NCBI GenBank assembly: GCA_001790525.1
Contig: MGCU01000023.1
Span: forward strand, 5,659 to 69,658
Source of the DNA: Candidatus Saccharibacteria bacterium RIFCSPHIGHO2_12_FULL_47_16b
GTDB lineage: Bacteria; Patescibacteriota; Saccharimonadia; Saccharimonadales; UBA10212
Direction: 5' to 3'
DNA: 64,000 nucleotides
In this document: positions 4,891-44,833 of the stretch, in pieces
Layout: each line of letters begins with the position of its first letter
Position numbering within the stretch: position 1 is the stretch's first letter
Notes under the pieces: model-generated
Seen by the model: the letters and a program-made list of their open reading frames with translations, nothing else
Database searches by the model: none
What the model was told of the DNA's origin: nothing
Program-made: the position numbers and the translations under genes

Positions 4891-5271
4891 ATGAAGTTAC
4901 CGACAAAGATTGGCGGGATGACTGCTCGGTTTGATGGTCGGGGGCGCAGCCTTGGCTATCCAACGGCCAATCTTAGGAAAACAAATGTTTCGGTCGACGA
5001 TGGCGTTTATTTTGGTTTTGCCACGCTTGGCAAATTTAAAAGTGAACCAGCTCTAATTTTTATTGGTGCGCCGGAAACTTTTGGTAAAAACGAACGTCGA
5101 GTCGAAACCTATCTTTTGGATATACCGGATGAGGATCATTATGACCAAAAATTAATGTTAAGTTTGGAAAAGTTCTGGCGGCCGTCTAAAAAATTTACAT
5201 CAATCAACGAATTAAAACACGCTATGCGCGACGATGAACTGGCCGCGCGCAAGTGGTTTGTCAATCACTGA
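4891..5271 (+). CDS. Stand-alone riboflavin kinase domain
   Basis: GRSLGYPTANL and VETYLLD motifs of the RibF C-terminal domain. Confidence 0.85.
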   Translation: MKLPTKIGGMTARFDGRGRSLGYPTANLRKTNVSVDDGVYFGFATLGKFKSEPALIFIGAPETFGKNERRVETYLLDIPDEDHYDQKLMLSLEKFWRPSKKFTSINELKHAMRDDELAARKWFVNH

Positions 5272-5430
5272 TGGCTGGGGAGGAGGGATTTTCGACCCAC
5301 AAATATTTTTCCTGACGGAAAAATTTCGCGGGCCCACCTCGCCGCCGTTGCGGCTGCGGTTTCCGGACTGCCACTGGCAGTTCTCACCCCGAATGCCGGG
5401 ACACCAGCACTAAAAATTATTCTATTTATT

Positions 5431-5504
5431 TGGCTTCGGGACTTGGACTCGAACCAAGATTGCTGGGACCAAAACCCAGTGTCCTACCATTAGACGATCC
5501 CGAA
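5431..5504 (-). tRNA. tRNA-Gln(TTG), intact, nested in the outer tRNA
   Basis: TTCGGGA/TCCCGAA acceptor, CTGGG-TTTTGGT-CCCAG anticodon arm, TTCGAGT T-loop, CCA. Confidence 0.93.
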
Positions 5505-5541
5505 TTATTTTAATGCTGGGCAAGCAAAACCCTGTGCCTTA

Positions 5542-5613
5542 TTTTACCCCGCTTATTTTCGTGAGTAGAATAGTCTGCAACCAGATTATGGAACTTCTAA
5601 AAAATGTGCGGGG
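5542..5613 (+). mobile_element. 72-bp hairpin insertion element, copy 1 (D-loop of outer tRNA)
   Basis: Core TAGTCTGCAAYCAGATTATG and CCCCGC/GCGGGG ends shared with 43045-43116 and 44136-44207. Confidence 0.75.
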
Positions 5614-5710
5614 CCGCTTGGCTACTCCCCACCGAAGCTTTGTTATTGTAACACCTTTAACGGTTAAGTTTTACAGATGAATCTAAAGTAATTATAATTT
5701 GTTGATAGGA

Positions 5711-6652
5711 ATGACAAAAGCCGAGAAAAAACCGGCTGATTATATTCAGCCGCTATATATCAATGGACTTCATGGCCGCCTGCTTCGCTTGCCACCACCC
5801 AAAGGCAAGAAGCGGGAGATTATGTATATTTACGGTCATCACTCCAGCATTGAGCGTAACTTTGGCTTGGCTTTATATTTGAACCGTTATGGCGGTGTGA
5901 CGGCGCCAGATCTACCCGGTTTTGGCGGTATGGATCCTTTTTATAAGATCGGTGAAAAGCCGACGCTTGATAACCTGGCGGATTATTTAGCCAGTGTGAT
6001 TAAGCTACGCTACCGTGGCCAGCGATTTAGCCTAACGGGCTTGAGTCTCGGCTTTACTATCATTACCAGGATGTTGCAAAAATATCCTCAAATTGCCAAA
6101 CAGATAGATTACTTGGTTAGTTTTGCTGGCTTTGCTCACAAGGACGATTTCAAGTACAAGCCCCGCACTTATTGGTTCTTCCGCGGTCTAACTTGGCTAT
6201 GCTCGCATCGTCTACCGGCAGCGTTTGTAAAATACTTTATCTTGCGCGGGCCGCTGATTCGTTTGGCCTACGCCGTTCTTGAACCACTATTTGTCAAAGA
6301 AACCAACACCAAAGTACGTGGTGTTGATGAGATGGAGCGAAAAAAACGAATCGATTTTGAGGTTTATCTTTGGAAGTGCAATGACCCGCGGACTTATATA
6401 TCTGTTGCGCACACTATGTTGATGTTAGATCTGTCTGGCCAGCATATTGATAAAAAGGTTTACCATGAGGCAATCGACACCGATAGATATTTTGATAATG
6501 TCAGGGTCGAACAGCATATGCGAGCTATCTATAAGGACTTTCACTTGGTTAAAGCCGGGATGCCGGCTCATGCGCCGTCGATAATCGCTACCGCCGAAGA
6601 GGCAGCACCATTCGTTCCATCACATATAAGACGGTTGTTAAGCAAGGATTAA
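5711..6652 (+). CDS. Alpha/beta hydrolase
   Basis: PDLPGFG, GLSLG nucleophile elbow, C-terminal His; ATG 5711 after TATAAT. Confidence 0.8.
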   Translation: MTKAEKKPADYIQPLYINGLHGRLLRLPPPKGKKREIMYIYGHHSSIERNFGLALYLNRYGGVTAPDLPGFGGMDPFYKIGEKPTLDNLADYLASVIKLRYRGQRFSLTGLSLGFTIITRMLQKYPQIAKQIDYLVSFAGFAHKDDFKYKPRTYWFFRGLTWLCSHRLPAAFVKYFILRGPLIRLAYAVLEPLFVKETNTKVRGVDEMERKKRIDFEVYLWKCNDPRTYISVAHTMLMLDLSGQHIDKKVYHEAIDTDRYFDNVRVEQHMRAIYKDFHLVKAGMPAHAPSIIATAEEAAPFVPSHIRRLLSKD

Positions 6653-42454: not shown

Positions 42455-43003
42455 TTACGCCGCTGTTGCCTCCTTGCCGCTCTTACCACTTTTACGGATA
42501 ATCTGTTCACCCTCGTAGCTTATTCCCTTGCCTTTGTATGGTTCAGGCTTTTTAAAGGCTCGAATCTCGGCCGCCACCTGACCCACTTTTTGCTTGTCGG
42601 CGCCGCTGACGGTAATAATATTTTGATCAACAGATAGACTTACACCCTCCGGAATTTTATAAATAACATCATGTGATAAGCCTAGGTTCATTTTAAGGTC
42701 AGTGCCTGATAATTGGCTACGGTAACCAACTCCACTTAATTCAAGTTTTATGTCATAACCTTGGCTGACGCCGGCAATCATATTTTTAAGTAGCGAACGC
42801 ATGAGACCGTGCTTGGCTCTGGTAATCGCTGTCTCATTTTGGCGATTAACTTGCAATTGATTATCCTTAACCGTTACTGTTATGTCGGCCAGCTTGGCTT
42901 GCTTAAGTTTACCTTTTAGTCCTTCAATATAAATAAAGTCTTTATCTACGATTACAGACACGCCAGGCGGTACAGCAATTGGTTGTTTACCGATACGACT
43001 CAC
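42455..43003 (-). CDS. rplF: 50S ribosomal protein L6
   Basis: MSRIGK from GTG 43003; PEPYKGKGI. Confidence 0.96.
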   Translation of the reverse strand: MSRIGKQPIAVPPGVSVIVDKDFIYIEGLKGKLKQAKLADITVTVKDNQLQVNRQNETAITRAKHGLMRSLLKNMIAGVSQGYDIKLELSGVGYRSQLSGTDLKMNLGLSHDVIYKIPEGVSLSVDQNIITVSGADKQKVGQVAAEIRAFKKPEPYKGKGISYEGEQIIRKSGKSGKEATAA

Positions 43004-43239
43004 AGAAGGCACCTCCGGTGCTCAATTATCAATTCACAATTATCCCCACACCAAAAACTTGAAGCTCCATAATCTGATTGCAGACTACTCCGCTCAGGTT
43101 TTGGTGCAGGGTAAGCAATGCTCAATGAATTATCAATTAGCAATTTGCAACTACTGGCTGCAGTTTGTTTGATAAATGACAAATGAGAAATTAATGGTAA
43201 ATGGTAAATGGTAAATGGTAAATGGAATGATGGAGTCAT
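43000..43239 (-). other. Bridge mini-ORF 12 (rpsH to rplF), 79 aa, with nested 72-bp element
   Basis: MTPSFHLPFTIYHLP...CELIIEHRRCLL*; GTGA overlap. Confidence 0.78.
43045..43116 (-). mobile_element. 72-bp element, copy 2
   Basis: 24-codon insert relative to homologous bridge 2. Confidence 0.75.
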
Positions 43240-43241
43240 GA

Positions 43242-43631
43242 CTAGTAGACCTCGCAAATTAATTCGCCGCCAATACCCTTTTTTCTAGCAGCCAAGCCGC
43301 TCATGATGCCTTGGGAAGTTGATAAAACTACTATACCGCGGCCAGCTTTGATGCTTGGAATCTCCGAGGCTTTAACATAATGGCGCCGGCCTGGGCGACT
43401 GACTCGTTTAAGTTCTGTTATAAGCGGCGACTGATCTAGTCCGTAAAGGAGAATTTGCAACTCTTTTCGATCATCCACTTGATTTGCCTTAACACTCGCC
43501 AAAAAGCCACTTTGTACTAAAACTTGAGCTACATCGTGCTTGATTTTTGAATGTGGCAAATTAACTTCATTTTTGCCGGTTGCCAAGGCGTTGCGAATTC
43601 GTGCTAACATATCGGCGATTGGATCAGTCAT
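43242..43631 (-). CDS. rpsH: 30S ribosomal protein S8
   Basis: TDPIADML.RIRNA, SRPGRR, GGEL. Confidence 0.96.
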   Translation of the reverse strand: MTDPIADMLARIRNALATGKNEVNLPHSKIKHDVAQVLVQSGFLASVKANQVDDRKELQILLYGLDQSPLITELKRVSRPGRRHYVKASEIPSIKAGRGIVVLSTSQGIMSGLAARKKGIGGELICEVY

Positions 43632-43723
43632 ACGCCACTCCTTTCAGTCGCTCTAGAAACTAGGAAATAGGAAATAGGAAATAGTGATTTTACTAATTTC
43701 TGATTACTAATTTCTAATTTCAT
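43628..43723 (-). other. Bridge mini-ORF 13 (rpsN to rpsH), 31 aa
   Basis: MKLEISNQKLVKSLFPISYFLVSRATERSGV*; ATGA overlap. Confidence 0.78.
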
Positions 43724-43728
43724 AATCC

Positions 43729-43998
43729 TTACCAGCTGCTTTTAGTTACACCCGGTATTTCGCCTTTGGCAGCATGTTCTCTAAAAGCAATCCGGCTTAA
43801 ACCAAACTGACGCATATAACCACGGGGCCGGCCAGTTTCAGCGCAGCGGTTTTTACGACGAGTCGGCGACGAATTACGGGGTAGTTTGGCTAAGCCAGCA
43901 TAATCACCAATAGCCTTGAGCTGGGCTCTTTTAGCAGAGTATTTTTCAATCAGTTGCAAACGCTTAGCATCGCGGGCCAGATTTGATTTTTGGGCCAT
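43729..43998 (-). CDS. rpsN: 30S ribosomal protein S14 (89-aa form)
   Basis: LPRNSSP, RC..TGRPRG, GVTKSSW. Confidence 0.96.
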
Positions 43999-44240
43999 CA
44001 GGCAACTCCTTCCGTCGTTGCAATTATCAATTCACAATTATCAATTTTCAACGATTTATCAAATATCAATTTACAGATTAAAGCAGAGGTTGCAGCTAGT
44101 TTGGTAAATGGTAAATGAGAAATTAATGGTAAATGCCTGCCCCGCATCAAATCCTGAGCGGAGTAGTCTGCAATCAGATTATGCAGCATCAAGATTTGGT
44201 GCCGGGGGTAAATGGTAAATGGTAAATGGAGCAATTTCAT
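43998..44240 (-). other. Bridge mini-ORF 14 (rplE to rpsN), 80 aa, with nested 72-bp element
   Basis: ATGA overlap with rplE; TGATG overlap with rpsN. Confidence 0.78.
44136..44207 (+). mobile_element. 72-bp element, copy 3 (opposite orientation to copy 2)
   Basis: 24-codon insert between TIY and HLP of the bridge. Confidence 0.75.
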
Positions 44241-44833
44241 TGCGACCTCTCCTTTTCAAACGGCATGCCTAATTTCTCCAGTAAGGCCTTGGATTGCTCA
44301 ACCGATGAGCTTGATATATTGAAGGTTATTTCCAGGCCGTGTGGTATAGCTGTATCCTCGTACGTTAATTCCGGAAAAACAGTTTGATCGGCTAGTCCGA
44401 TAGTATAATTGCCCTGGCTATCAAACGATTTGTTGCTTAAACCGTGGAAGTCACGCAAGCGAGGTAGGACTAAGTTTACCAAACGATCAGCAAATTCGTA
44501 CATTCTTTGACCGCGCAGGCTTACTTTTAGACCAATTACCACACCCTGTCGAAGTTTAAATGCCGCAATCGCTTTTTTAGATAAGGTCTTAACTGGCTTT
44601 TGCCCGCTGATTTTCATGAGCGTATTTTCCGCTACATCTATCAGCTTTTTATCGTCTTTAGCTTTACCTAGGCCGACGCTAACAATAACTTTTTCTAGCC
44701 TTGGTACCTGATGAAGACTTTTAAGTCCCAGTTGGCCCTTAAGTTCAGGCGCGTACTGCTCTTTAAACAACGAGCCTAGCCTAGCTTTATAGGCCGGAGG
44801 TGCTTTTTTAGTAGTCTGTGCTTGAGCAACCAT
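44237..44833 (-). CDS. rplE: 50S ribosomal protein L5
   Basis: VPRLEK, ISGQKP, LPRLRDFHG, FPE. Confidence 0.96.
   Translation of the reverse strand: MVAQAQTTKKAPPAYKARLGSLFKEQYAPELKGQLGLKSLHQVPRLEKVIVSVGLGKAKDDKKLIDVAENTLMKISGQKPVKTLSKKAIAAFKLRQGVVIGLKVSLRGQRMYEFADRLVNLVLPRLRDFHGLSNKSFDSQGNYTIGLADQTVFPELTYEDTAIPHGLEITFNISSSSVEQSKALLEKLGMPFEKERSQ

What the first reader, a model, noticed from the sequence alone, without database searches (positions are those of the whole stretch)
5272..5631. A tRNA inside a tRNA: tRNA-Gln broken three times, with an intact tRNA-Gln nested in its anticodon loop
Seen (minus strand): TGGGGAGTAGCCAAGCGG |72 bp| TAAGGCACAGGGTTTTG |122 bp, 5403-5524| GTCCCGGCATTCGGGG.. 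|~90 bp| ..AATCCCTCCTCCCCAGCCA. Removing the D-loop and anticodon inserts restores those arms with no duplication; the T-arm junction is imperfect. The 122-bp insert sits right after the anticodon (36/37), is closed by a CCAGCA..AAAAT / ATTTT..TGCTGG stem, and carries a different, complete tRNA-Gln(TTG). Inference: either a hairpin element delivered a replacement tRNA into its own target, or these are small excisable introns. They are too short to be group I introns.
Basis: partly seen in the sequence, partly recalled or inferred. Interest (0 to 1): 0.85.

Follow-up and report, generated by a model that had tools for sequence, protein, structure and literature searches.

The report
Replacement tRNA nested in dead tRNA
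A working glutamine tRNA gene sits inside the anticodon loop of the older glutamine tRNA gene of this tiny Saccharibacteria-like genome; the older gene is broken in three places and is likely a dead shell whose promoter the inner gene is predicted to use, so this looks like in-place gene replacement rather than tRNA introns.

Summary
On the minus strand, four pieces (5631-5614, 5541-5525, 5402-5387, 5296/5290-5272) are the resident tRNA-Gln(UUG) gene. The same gene is uninterrupted at the same locus in the sister species.

The three inserts are of three different kinds:
- A 72-nt REPIN-like hairpin repeat lies in the D loop.
- A 122-nt cassette with inverted-repeat ends lies between positions 36 and 37. 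It carries a complete tRNA-Gln(UUG) of another sequence type.
- About 90 nt of a conserved three-hairpin "expanded T-arm" module is fused at the T stem.

The intron reading is not supported:
- The outer gene has an A.G mismatch in its anticodon stem and a non-canonical 8-nt T loop.
- No splicing endonuclease or group I core was found.
- The outer gene is defective in all 9 nested loci I inspected in relatives and metagenome contigs.

The inner gene and its CUG paralogue, which is also nested in an outer remnant, are the only intact tRNA-Gln genes found in the genome.

Nested alleles are scattered across a tree of the neighbouring gene and share scars. I infer that they spread by recombination, but the mechanism is not shown.

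This scan noted the same layout earlier in other Patescibacteria genomes. Four literature searches found no description of it.

The parts
5645..5653 (-). Predicted extended -10 element (TGT + TACAAT) of the resident tRNA-Gln promoter; predicted to drive the whole nested unit
   Evidence: Read by eye. The block ...CTGTAAAAC...TG(T/G)TACAATA is conserved upstream of the intact outer gene in G001 and upstream of inner-bearing alleles in G031, G035 and L196. The consensus scan did not list a minus-strand promoter here.
5614..5631 (-). Outer tRNA-Gln piece 1: acceptor 5' strand, D stem 5' strand, start of D loop
   Evidence: 17 of 18 positions identical to G001's intact gene. It shares the variant TAGCC with G001 only; the other 8 intact outer UUG genes read TGGCC.
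5542..5613 (-). Insert 1: 72-nt long-hairpin repeat (REPIN-like) in the D loop
   Evidence: The 27-nt core recurs at C23:48719 and C5:17442. Shorter matches lie at C23:49841, C2:2713 and C27:35791. There is 79% identity over 68 nt to C2:2671-2739. It is absent from G001's D loop.
5525..5541 (-). Outer piece 2: end of D loop, D stem 3' strand, anticodon stem 5' strand, loop positions 32-36 (anticodon TTG)
5403..5524 (-). Insert 2: 122-nt cassette between positions 36 and 37, made of left arm, inner tRNA and right arm
   Evidence: Inverted arms at 5508-5519 and 5404-5415. The same cassette and joints occur in L003, L004 and L196, and in part in L002, L013, L026, L166 and L193.
5431..5504 (-). 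Inner tRNA-Gln(UUG), intact, CCA encoded; the only tRNA-Gln(UUG) gene found in the genome
   Evidence: ARAGORN and Rfam RF00005 at 60.1 bits. It is 90.5% identical to the genome's tRNA-Gln(CUG) on C10.
5387..5402 (-). Outer piece 3: loop positions 37-38, anticodon stem 3' strand (gives an A.G mismatch), variable loop, first four G of the T stem
5285..5389 (-). Three-hairpin 'expanded T-arm' module (starts GGGTGAGAA, ends in a T-loop-like TCGAAAAT + CCC); contains insert 3 (5386-5297)
   Evidence: In an alignment of 10 copies from 9 genomes, 14 of 31 predicted pairs keep pairing through changes on both sides. Copies lie behind or fused to tRNA-Gln, Glu, Ser and Tyr genes.
5272..5290 (-). Outer piece 4: T stem 3' strand, acceptor 3' strand, discriminator, CCA. 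Its first 8 nt also belong to the module's constant end
   Evidence: 19 of 19 identical to G001 and G016. The module's end GTGGGTCGAAA.TCCCTC is followed by different tRNA 3' ends in other copies.
4891..5271 (+). Riboflavin kinase gene, converging on the tRNA unit (synteny marker)
   Evidence: Pfam PF01687, E 3.9e-27. Also found next to the G001 locus.
5699..6652 (+). Alpha/beta-hydrolase-like gene, divergent from the tRNA unit (synteny marker used for the tree)
   Evidence: Weak Pfam match (PF12146, below the cut-off). tblastn finds it beside tRNA-Gln(UUG) in 13 of the 17 loci tested.

Best explanation
The outer tRNA-Gln(UUG) is the resident gene of this lineage, broken in three places and likely a non-functional shell. 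The complete inner tRNA-Gln(UUG) nested at anticodon-loop position 36/37 is likely the gene that now does the job.

Shown:
- The outer type is the order-wide norm and is intact at this very locus in the sister species.
- In this genome the outer gene carries a REPIN-like hairpin repeat in the D loop.
- It also carries a 122-nt inverted-repeat cassette holding a full tRNA-Gln of another common bacterial type.
- It is fused to a conserved three-hairpin T-arm module.
- It has decayed, with a stem mismatch and an aberrant T loop.
- Both intact tRNA-Gln genes of the genome are of the inner type, and both sit inside outer-type remnants.

Inferred:
- The cassette has no promoter of its own and is transcribed from the resident gene's conserved extended -10 promoter.
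- The inner tRNA is cut out of a roughly 360-nt precursor by the ordinary tRNA end-processing enzymes. The 12-19-bp flank helix would present it like a processing stalk.
- Once the inner copy took over, the shell was free to collect repeats and deletions.
- The T-arm break arose by fusion or deletion between the T stem and a module that once trailed behind the gene, as it does in G016.
- The nested allele spreads between lineages, and between the UUG and CUG loci, mainly by homologous recombination or gene conversion. The conserved tRNA halves and neighbouring genes would serve as the homology.
For: 1. Orthology and synteny. The intact 75-nt outer gene lies between the same hydrolase and ribF genes in same-genus G001. 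The hydrolase lies beside tRNA-Gln(UUG) in 13 of 17 loci tested.

2. The outer type is the norm. 59 of 61 relatives match the intact gene, mostly over its full length. G000 itself has only short partial matches.

3. Decay.
- All 9 intact outer UUG genes have fully paired anticodon stems and the T loop TTCGAAT. G000 has A28.G42 and an 8-nt T loop.
- G020, of another genus, differs from G001 at 1 of 75 positions. G000 differs from G001 at 4 of the first 51.

4. Only two intact tRNA-Gln genes are found among 43 tRNAs, both of the inner type. The CUG gene on C10 lies between an outer 5' fragment plus left arm and an outer-like 3' end.

5. The nested layout, with the same joints, recurs in G023, G028, G031 (two loci), G001:C41, L196 and L193/L195. 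Together with the two G000 loci these make the 9 nested loci, and the outer gene is defective in all 9 by inspection.

6. Insert 1 belongs to a dispersed hairpin family. The genome has three Y1-transposase-domain genes.

7. Insert 3 belongs to a structured module family, with 14 of 31 pairs covarying. In G016 the module and a copy of the tRNA-Gln 3' end lie 1.2 kb behind an intact gene.

8. Spread.
- On the hydrolase tree of 13 taxa, at least 3 changes between inner and outer are needed, and well-supported branches force them.
- L196, at a UUG locus, carries CUG-type outer sequence right of the cassette.
- L193, at a CUG locus, carries the same D-loop scar as the 3' end of insert 1 plus the start of piece 2 here.
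- The left-arm-plus-tRNA pattern was found only at these two kinds of locus in metagenome contigs (5 stretches) and never in viral contigs.

9. The promoter block is conserved before both intact-outer and inner-bearing alleles.

10. No EndA was found. An Rfam scan of the region at E up to 10 finds only the inner tRNA and a chance miRNA match.
Against: - There are no RNA data. Expression, processing and the absence of a spliced outer tRNA are therefore untested.
- The whole 360 nt folds with the outer acceptor and D stems closed around the inserts (z = -3.98). ARAGORN accepts one excised form.
- RtcB, an RNA ligase used in tRNA splicing elsewhere, is present in this 0.8-Mb genome.
- The T arm and anticodon stem of the shells in G023 and G028 are still paired. 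That could mean residual constraint.
- The consensus promoter scan lists no minus-strand promoter upstream of piece 1.
- The clustering of states on the tree does not differ from shuffled labels (61-64 of 500 shuffles as low). A single-gene tree is also a weak proxy for the species tree.
- No enzyme or mechanism for the first insertion is identified.
- Positions 5340-5427 lack independent contig support.
Confidence: 0.8

Rival explanations
1. The three inserts are small introns removed at the RNA level. The outer tRNA-Gln would be regenerated and the inner tRNA released as a by-product, in an archaeal-style or new bacterial splicing pathway with RtcB as ligase.
For: - Precise excision of the first two inserts restores the D arm and anticodon arm with no duplication.
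- The precursor is predicted to fold with the outer stems closed.
- RtcB is present.
- Archaeal tRNA introns at several positions are known and can transpose (passages of PMC10714607 citing Fujishima 2010).
Against: - No tRNA-splicing endonuclease domain was found.
- I saw no bulge-helix-bulge at the joints, by inspection.
- Rfam finds no intron or ribozyme family.
- The joined product has a stem mismatch and a T loop lacking the TTC motif, unlike all 9 intact orthologues.
- In G023 and G028 the outer anticodon positions are overwritten. In G031, G001 and G000:C10 large parts of the shell are deleted. There is therefore no selection for a spliceable outer gene.
- Insert 1 is a dispersed intergenic repeat.
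Confidence: 0.04
2. The cassette is an enzyme-driven, site-specific mobile element. A transposase or recombinase would recognise the tRNA-Gln anticodon stem-loop and insert the cassette repeatedly and independently at 36/37, rather than the allele spreading by homologous recombination.
For: - The joint is identical at two paralogous loci and in non-sister lineages.
- The inverted ends are 12-19 nt long, and their inner 5 nt copy the anticodon-stem strands, so each joint looks like an att-type stem-loop.
- Piece 1 carries a genus-specific variant shared with G001. This suggests insertion into the native allele.
- The G023 shell shares acceptor and T-stem variants with G023's own intact UUG gene.
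- Three Y1 transposase-domain genes are present.
- A prophage inserted in a tRNA anticodon is reported for Thermus (passage of bioRxiv 10.64898/2026.04.20.719267).
Against: - There is no target-site duplication.
- The loop remnants are 9 nt and 2 nt rather than equal, as conservative recombination would leave.
- No copy lies outside tRNA-Gln genes.
- No recombinase gene lies near the locus. The genome has a single tyrosine recombinase gene and no serine recombinase.
- Shell sequence and scars co-transferred with the cassette fit recombination better.
Confidence: 0.25
3. The outer shell is not junk. Its acceptor, D and T-like stems would be kept as a scaffold for processing, stability or regulation of the inner tRNA precursor.
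For: - The predicted fold closes the outer stems (z = -3.98).
- Paired anticodon and T stems persist in G023 and G028, and L196 has a perfect 19-bp flank helix.
- The module in the T arm is itself under structural constraint.
Against: - G035 and several other-family genomes express the same tRNA type with no shell at all.
- G031 keeps only 11 nt of it.
- The shells differ widely in what is left.
Confidence: 0.1
4. Assembly artefact: a chimeric contig joined reads of two organisms through shared tRNA words.
For: - The tRNA region is a graph tangle in the Logan contigs (many short pieces).
- 5340-5427 is not independently covered.
Against: - Exact contigs in runs of three studies bridge piece 1, insert 1, piece 2, the left arm and the start of the inner tRNA.
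- The same nested architecture occurs in independent genomes and metagenome contigs.
Confidence: 0.02

Closest known systems
Genomic islands and prophages that integrate into tRNA genes and carry a replacement tRNA segment
   Same: A tRNA gene is the target. The insertion supplies what the interrupted gene can no longer give. The anticodon loop and the T-loop/3' end are the classic sub-sites (recalled: Williams 2002). Att-like copies of tRNA parts are left behind.
   Different: - The insert is 122 nt and has no integrase.
- It brings a whole tRNA of a different sequence type instead of repairing the host gene.
- It has inverted, not direct, end repeats.
- The host gene is left dead.
REP/REPIN elements mobilised by RAYT (Y1 HUH) transposases, and Rickettsia palindromic elements
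   Same: Insert 1 is a roughly 70-nt long hairpin present in several copies, some inside operon spacers. Y1-transposase-domain genes are present.
   Different: No link between these particular repeats and these genes has been tested. Here a copy sits inside a tRNA D loop.
Archaeal multi-intron and transposing tRNA introns (Thermoproteales) and bacterial group I tRNA introns
   Same: Several interruptions of one tRNA gene, one of them in the anticodon loop.
   Different: No BHB motif, no EndA, no group I core, decayed exons, and a full tRNA inside the insert.
RtT RNA of the E. coli tyrT operon (tRNA 3'-end repeats in a structured trailer)
   Same: Insert 3 and piece 4 form a structured module that ends in a copy of the tRNA 3' end. 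Elsewhere the module trails behind tRNA genes.
   Different: There is no sequence relation: Rfam gave no RF00391 match. Here the module is fused into the T arm of the dead gene.
Xenologous (in situ) gene displacement
   Same: A foreign-type gene of the same function replaces the resident one at the same locus and under the same promoter.
   Different: The replacement sits physically inside the displaced gene, at one defined nucleotide position, in several lineages.

Membership tests
Bacterial group I intron in a tRNA anticodon loop | Conserved group I catalytic core (P3-P9), usually about 200 nt or more | tested here: not met
   An Rfam scan of 5150-5750 at E up to 10 finds only the inner tRNA and a chance miRNA match. 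74 of the 122 nt are the inner tRNA.
Bacterial group I intron in a tRNA anticodon loop | Exons join to a functional tRNA | tested here: not met
   The joined form has an A.G stem mismatch and an 8-nt T loop, against 9 of 9 canonical orthologues.
Archaeal-type (BHB) tRNA intron | Splicing endonuclease (EndA, PF01974) encoded | tested here: not met
   No match in the 95%-complete genome; the control search found it in the four archaeal control genomes.
Archaeal-type (BHB) tRNA intron | Bulge-helix-bulge motif at both exon-intron joints | tested here: not met
   By inspection of the sequence and the MFE fold. The joints lie in a 9-nt/2-nt asymmetric internal loop. No dedicated BHB search tool was available.
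Archaeal-type (BHB) tRNA intron | RtcB-type ligase encoded | tested here: met
   PF01139 match of 267 bits on C24:5380-6441. RtcB is common in bacteria, so this is weak evidence.
Integrase-borne tRNA-targeting island | Integrase gene in or beside the insert | tested here: not met
   The neighbours are pyrimidine/PRPP genes, ribF, a hydrolase and glycosyltransferases. There is one Phage_integrase gene on another contig and no Resolvase.
Integrase-borne tRNA-targeting island | Direct repeat of the tRNA segment at both ends | tested here: not met
   The cassette has inverted arms only. No duplication is seen at the D-loop or anticodon joints.
MITE (non-autonomous DNA transposon) | Terminal inverted repeats | tested here: met
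   12 nt at 92% here; 19 nt at 100% in L196.
MITE (non-autonomous DNA transposon) | Target-site duplication and copies at many unrelated sites | tested here: not met
   No duplication at the joints. The cassette was found only in tRNA-Gln genes.
REP/REPIN (insert 1 only) | Multi-copy long hairpin built of inverted halves | tested here: met
   and the fold.
REP/REPIN (insert 1 only) | Cognate RAYT (Y1 transposase) that moves it | tested here: inconclusive
   Three Y1_Tnp-domain matches (206-231 aa frames). No link to this repeat was tested.
tRNA-trailing structured module (insert 3; unnamed family, RtT-like by layout) | Conserved three-hairpin fold ending in a T-loop-like motif plus the neighbouring tRNA's 3' end | tested here: met
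   14 of 31 pairs covary in 10 copies. The 3' ends match Gln, Ser, Tyr and other tRNAs.

The most novel reading that the evidence does not exclude
The inverted-repeat tRNA-Gln cassette is a self-spreading 'tRNA overwrite' element. It lands at one nucleotide position (36/37) in the anticodon loop of resident tRNA-Gln genes and uses the near-universal tRNA halves as its landing arms. It kills the host gene, borrows its promoter, and so makes the cell dependent on the cassette's own tRNA. That would be a minimal, protein-free addictive mobile element. The same genomes also carry a second structured module that is aimed at tRNA T arms.
Probability: 0.3. Interest if true: 0.8.

Novelty: new variant of a known kind. 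Interest (0 to 1): 0.6.

Why it matters
This locus shows an essential tRNA gene being replaced in place by a different tRNA of the same specificity. The replacement is inserted at a defined position inside the old gene and probably runs from the old promoter.

The layout recurs at two paralogous loci and in several genera of ultra-small bacteria, so it is a process rather than an accident. It also gives a natural case of three different small non-coding elements all landing in one structured RNA gene.

Practical consequences:
- tRNA finders and annotators will miss or misread such loci as split or intron-bearing tRNAs.
- tRNA-gene counts in CPR/Patescibacteria genomes need this in mind.
- If the cassette proves to be self-spreading, it would be an unusually small selfish element that works by dependence rather than by an encoded enzyme.

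Tried and rejected
- Known RNA family. I first suspected that insert 3 was SRP RNA or part of RNase P RNA, because of motif resemblance recalled from memory. Rfam found nothing in the region or in the related C15 locus. RF00010 and RF00169 find nothing anywhere in the genome.
- tmRNA. ARAGORN finds none in the genome.
- Other interrupted tRNAs. ARAGORN with introns allowed adds only two weak calls: C15 5732-5862, which on inspection is poorly paired, and a C20 call with an 801-nt "intron". I take both as false positives.
- Collection scan for the inner D-arm motif. None of the 120 flanks printed shows the cassette arms. It shows only that the inner tRNA type is common in Bacteria.
- Chance matches of the left arm in two coding regions, C10:26598 and C12:3145.
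- RNA evidence. The runs on record as RNA hold 4-5% of the words. I did not lay them, so nothing can be said on expression.
- Independent cover of 5340-5427. Not obtained at 97% likeness; a hole proves nothing.
- Viral origin. The left-arm-plus-tRNA pattern has 0 matches in viral contigs.
There is no Resolvase domain in this genome.
- Promoter scan. It lists no minus-strand promoter before piece 1. My -10 call rests on reading the sequence and on conservation.
Full report
**1. What is in the sequence**

Read on the minus strand, 5631-5272 contains four pieces that together make a bacterial tRNA-Gln(UUG):
- 5631-5614
- 5541-5525
- 5402-5387
- 5296/5290-5272

Three inserts separate the pieces:
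- 72 nt at 5613-5542
- 122 nt at 5524-5403
- 90-96 nt at 5386-5297/5291

ARAGORN and Rfam find one intact tRNA in the stretch, tRNA-Gln(TTG) at 5504-5431, inside the middle insert.

I cut the three inserts out by coordinates in a script. ARAGORN then calls a 76-nt tRNA-Gln(TTG), but only when the last piece resumes at 5300-5296. That is 5 of the 16 resume points tested. The best joined form has an 8-nt T loop without the TTC motif.

**2. The outer gene is the resident gene**

The window is contig 23 of a 794-kb assembly of 29 contigs with 46.6% G+C. Earlier notes of this scan call the genome Saccharibacteria. The record titles name Saccharibacteria and other Patescibacteria among carriers of the inner tRNA type.

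In the same-genus genome G001, the same position holds an uninterrupted 75-nt tRNA-Gln(UUG). It lies between the same divergent hydrolase gene and the same ribF gene. That gene matches the four pieces at 47 of the first 51 positions and at 19 of the last 19.

This outer sequence type is the norm in the order. 59 of 61 relatives match it, mostly over its full length. G000 itself gives only short partial matches.

**3. The outer gene is decaying**

All 9 intact outer-type UUG genes that I fetched have perfectly paired anticodon stems and the T loop TTCGAAT. G000 has an A.G mismatch and the aberrant T loop.

G020 belongs to another genus, and its hydrolase is only 43% identical to that of G000. 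Even so, its tRNA differs from G001's at one position. G000 differs from G001's at four positions within the first 51. That is the rate of the flanking spacer, not that of a constrained tRNA.

**4. The inner gene is the working one (inferred)**

Among 43 tRNA genes, the genome has two intact tRNA-Gln genes: the inner UUG gene here and a CUG gene on C10. They are 90.5% identical.

The C10 gene is nested too:
- It is preceded by the first about 16 nt of an outer-type gene and the same left arm.
- It is followed by an outer-like 3' end.

The genome has GatB and no GlnRS-type C-domain. Its tRNA-Gln is therefore presumably charged by the transamidation route, and both tRNA types start with U1-A72.

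The inner D-arm type is widespread in Bacteria. A query made of the cassette and its two adjoining outer pieces matches 53 of 401 genomes sampled from the order, mostly over the tRNA itself.

**5. The three inserts are three different things**

*Insert 1* is a copy of a roughly 70-nt long-hairpin repeat. Other copies lie in spacers of the ribosomal-protein operon of this same window and on C5, C27 and C2. The C2 copy directly follows a sub-threshold FMN-riboswitch match. The genome has three Y1-transposase-domain genes, but I did not test any link to the repeat.

*Insert 2* is the cassette.
- Its arms are inverted repeats: 12 nt at 92% complementarity here, 19 nt at 100% in metagenome contig L196, and 9 + 9 nt in G023.
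- The inner five bases of each arm copy the strands of the tRNA-Gln anticodon stem. The right arm is also an inverted partial copy of the inner tRNA's own anticodon-stem-to-T-stem segment.
- The origin of the arms is unresolved.

*Insert 3* is not a simple insertion. Together with the first 8 nt of the last piece, it is one copy of a conserved module:
- It starts GGGTGAGAA.
- It forms three hairpins.
- It ends in a T-loop-like TCGAAA.TCCC.
- In 10 copies from 9 genomes, 14 of 31 predicted pairs keep pairing through double changes.

Elsewhere the module occurs in three settings:
- It trails behind an intact tRNA and ends in a copy of that tRNA's 3' end. Examples are Gln in G016, 1.2 kb downstream; Ser in G023 and G025; and Tyr in this window at 29983-29858.
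- It is fused to the 5' part of a second, truncated tRNA-Gln or tRNA-Glu copy just upstream of an intact one (G012, G026, G015, G011).
- It is fused to a 5' fragment of an unidentified conserved RNA on C15.

I therefore read the T-arm break here as a fusion between the T stem of the dispensable outer gene and a module that once trailed behind it. This is inference; a direct insertion into the T arm is not excluded.

**6. The nested layout recurs, and the shell is always broken**

The same cassette, with the same joints, lies in outer-type genes at two conserved loci. At the left joint the outer loop runs through position 36 and the arm follows; at the right joint the arm is followed by GT and the stem.

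At the UUG locus, beside the hydrolase:
- G000
- L196
- G031, where only 11 nt of shell are left

At the CUG locus:
- G000:C10
- G023
- G028
- G001:C41
- G031:C17
- L193/L195

By inspection the outer gene is defective in all 9 loci. The defects are insertions in the D loop, overwritten anticodon positions (G023, G028), lost acceptor pairing (G028), or large deletions.

Three further loci show an inner-type gene followed by an outer-like 3' remnant without the arms: G144, G375 and G028:C53. G035 and genomes of other families have the inner type with no shell at all.

**7. How it spreads (inferred)**

At the hydrolase locus:
- Intact outer genes are found in G001, G008, G002, G029, G006, G009, G020 and G023.
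- Inner-type genes are found in G000, G031, G035, G028 and G027.

Species of one genus differ in three genera: g1, g8 and g2.

On a maximum-likelihood tree of the hydrolase (13 rows; G028 is partial), at least three changes of state are needed, and well-supported branches force them. The labels are no more clustered than shuffled labels, with 61-64 of 500 shuffles as low.

A decayed shell cannot mutate back to an intact gene. The pattern therefore needs either repeated arrival of the nested allele or re-import of intact genes.

Two observations favour recombination over repeated enzymatic insertion:
- L196, at a UUG locus, carries CUG-type outer sequence (variable loop and T stem) right of the cassette.
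- L193, at a CUG locus in another organism, carries in its D-loop region the same string as the 3' end of insert 1 plus the start of piece 2 here, one A shorter.

Two observations favour insertion into native alleles:
- Piece 1 here has a variant shared only with G001.
- The G023 shell shares acceptor and T-stem variants with G023's own intact UUG gene.

Recombination with breakpoints inside the tRNA halves would explain both sets of observations, and I give it the larger share.

No recombinase lies near the locus. The genome has one tyrosine recombinase gene and no serine recombinase.

**8. Expression (inferred)**

The block ...CTGTAAAAC...TG(T/G)TACAATA upstream of piece 1 is conserved before the intact outer gene of G001. 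It is also conserved before the inner-bearing alleles of G031, G035 and L196. In G035 the inner tRNA starts about 10 nt after this block.

I saw no usable promoter inside the cassette. The consensus scan lists none on the minus strand at all, including upstream of piece 1.

The 360-nt unit is predicted to fold with the inner cloverleaf on a 12-bp flank helix, inside closed outer stems (MFE -136.4 kcal/mol, z = -3.98).

No RNA data bear on any of this.

**9. Against introns**

- No EndA was found.
- No group I, group II or small-ribozyme family was found.
- I saw no BHB motif by inspection.
- The exons are decayed, both here and in every relative examined.
- RtcB is present, but it is common in bacteria.

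**10. Assembly**

Exact Logan contigs from runs of three studies bridge the joints from the inner tRNA's 5' part through the left arm, piece 2, insert 1 and piece 1 into the upstream spacer. Exact contigs of two of those runs bridge the module's 3' part and piece 4 into ribF. One of these runs may be the source sample. Positions 5340-5427 were not covered. The right joint rests on its recurrence in other assemblies.

**11. Literature and earlier notes**

I ran four full-text searches. I saw listings only, plus passages of PMC10714607 and of bioRxiv 10.64898/2026.04.20.719267. None gave a description of a tRNA gene nested in the anticodon loop of another tRNA gene. The nearest item was a tRNA-Sec gene predicted inside selB (PMC8124441, listing only).

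This scan has noted the same layout before, in three other Patescibacteria genomes (e1-716801, e1-787820, e1-787839). It has also noted tRNA-trailing elements (e1-1007011, e1-825144, e1-696445). These are unchecked notes and I did not re-examine their loci.

**12. Verdict**

It is best read as in-place displacement of the resident tRNA-Gln by a nested, promoterless replacement gene, followed by decay of the shell. It is not a set of tRNA introns. The way the cassette first entered the gene, and the way it spreads, remain open.

Noticed in passing
G000 contig C15:8497-8600 (locus L025 about 698-800); not in the window: A roughly 100-nt non-coding stretch between pth and dprA. Its first 41 nt are 93-100% identical in many genomes across the order. 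It lies just downstream of a copy of the three-hairpin module. Rfam finds nothing there. It may be an unrecognised housekeeping RNA.
   Followed up: partly
whole genome G000: No RNase P RNA (RF00010), no small SRP RNA (RF00169) and no tmRNA (ARAGORN) were detected in a 95%-complete genome. They are either very divergent or lie on missing contigs.
   Followed up: no
G000 contig C24:5380-6441: An RtcB RNA ligase gene (385-aa frame) is kept in a 0.8-Mb genome, close to tRNA-Thr, tRNA-Gly and tRNA-Asp genes.
   Followed up: no
G000 contig C2:2671-2833 (locus L027 472-634): A sub-threshold FMN-riboswitch match (44.5 bits against a cut-off of 66.2) is directly followed by a copy of the insert-1 hairpin family, upstream region of tRNA-Arg.
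   Followed up: no
window 42650-44650 (C23:48301-50300): Spacers between ribosomal-protein genes are filled with short AT-rich tandem units and with two inverted copies of the insert-1 hairpin family. Related earlier notes exist (e1-1070191, e1-1070194).
   Followed up: partly
L009 1681-2337 (G001): A 218-aa ORF of unknown function lies between the intact tRNA-Gln and ribF in G001 and is absent from G000. It may be a cassette anchored at the tRNA 3' end.
   Followed up: no
L018 about 440-520 (G011) and L156/L161 (G311, G251): Truncated upstream copies of tRNA-Glu or inner-type tRNA-Gln carry small GC-rich hairpins in the anticodon loop or D loop. Dead tRNA copies in these genomes seem to collect hairpin inserts generally.
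   Followed up: no
L003 1200-1500, L013 and L166 upstream regions: Another hairpin element (arms CAATCTGCC / GGCAGATTG) lies upstream of the inner CUG gene in G023, G001 and G031.
   Followed up: no
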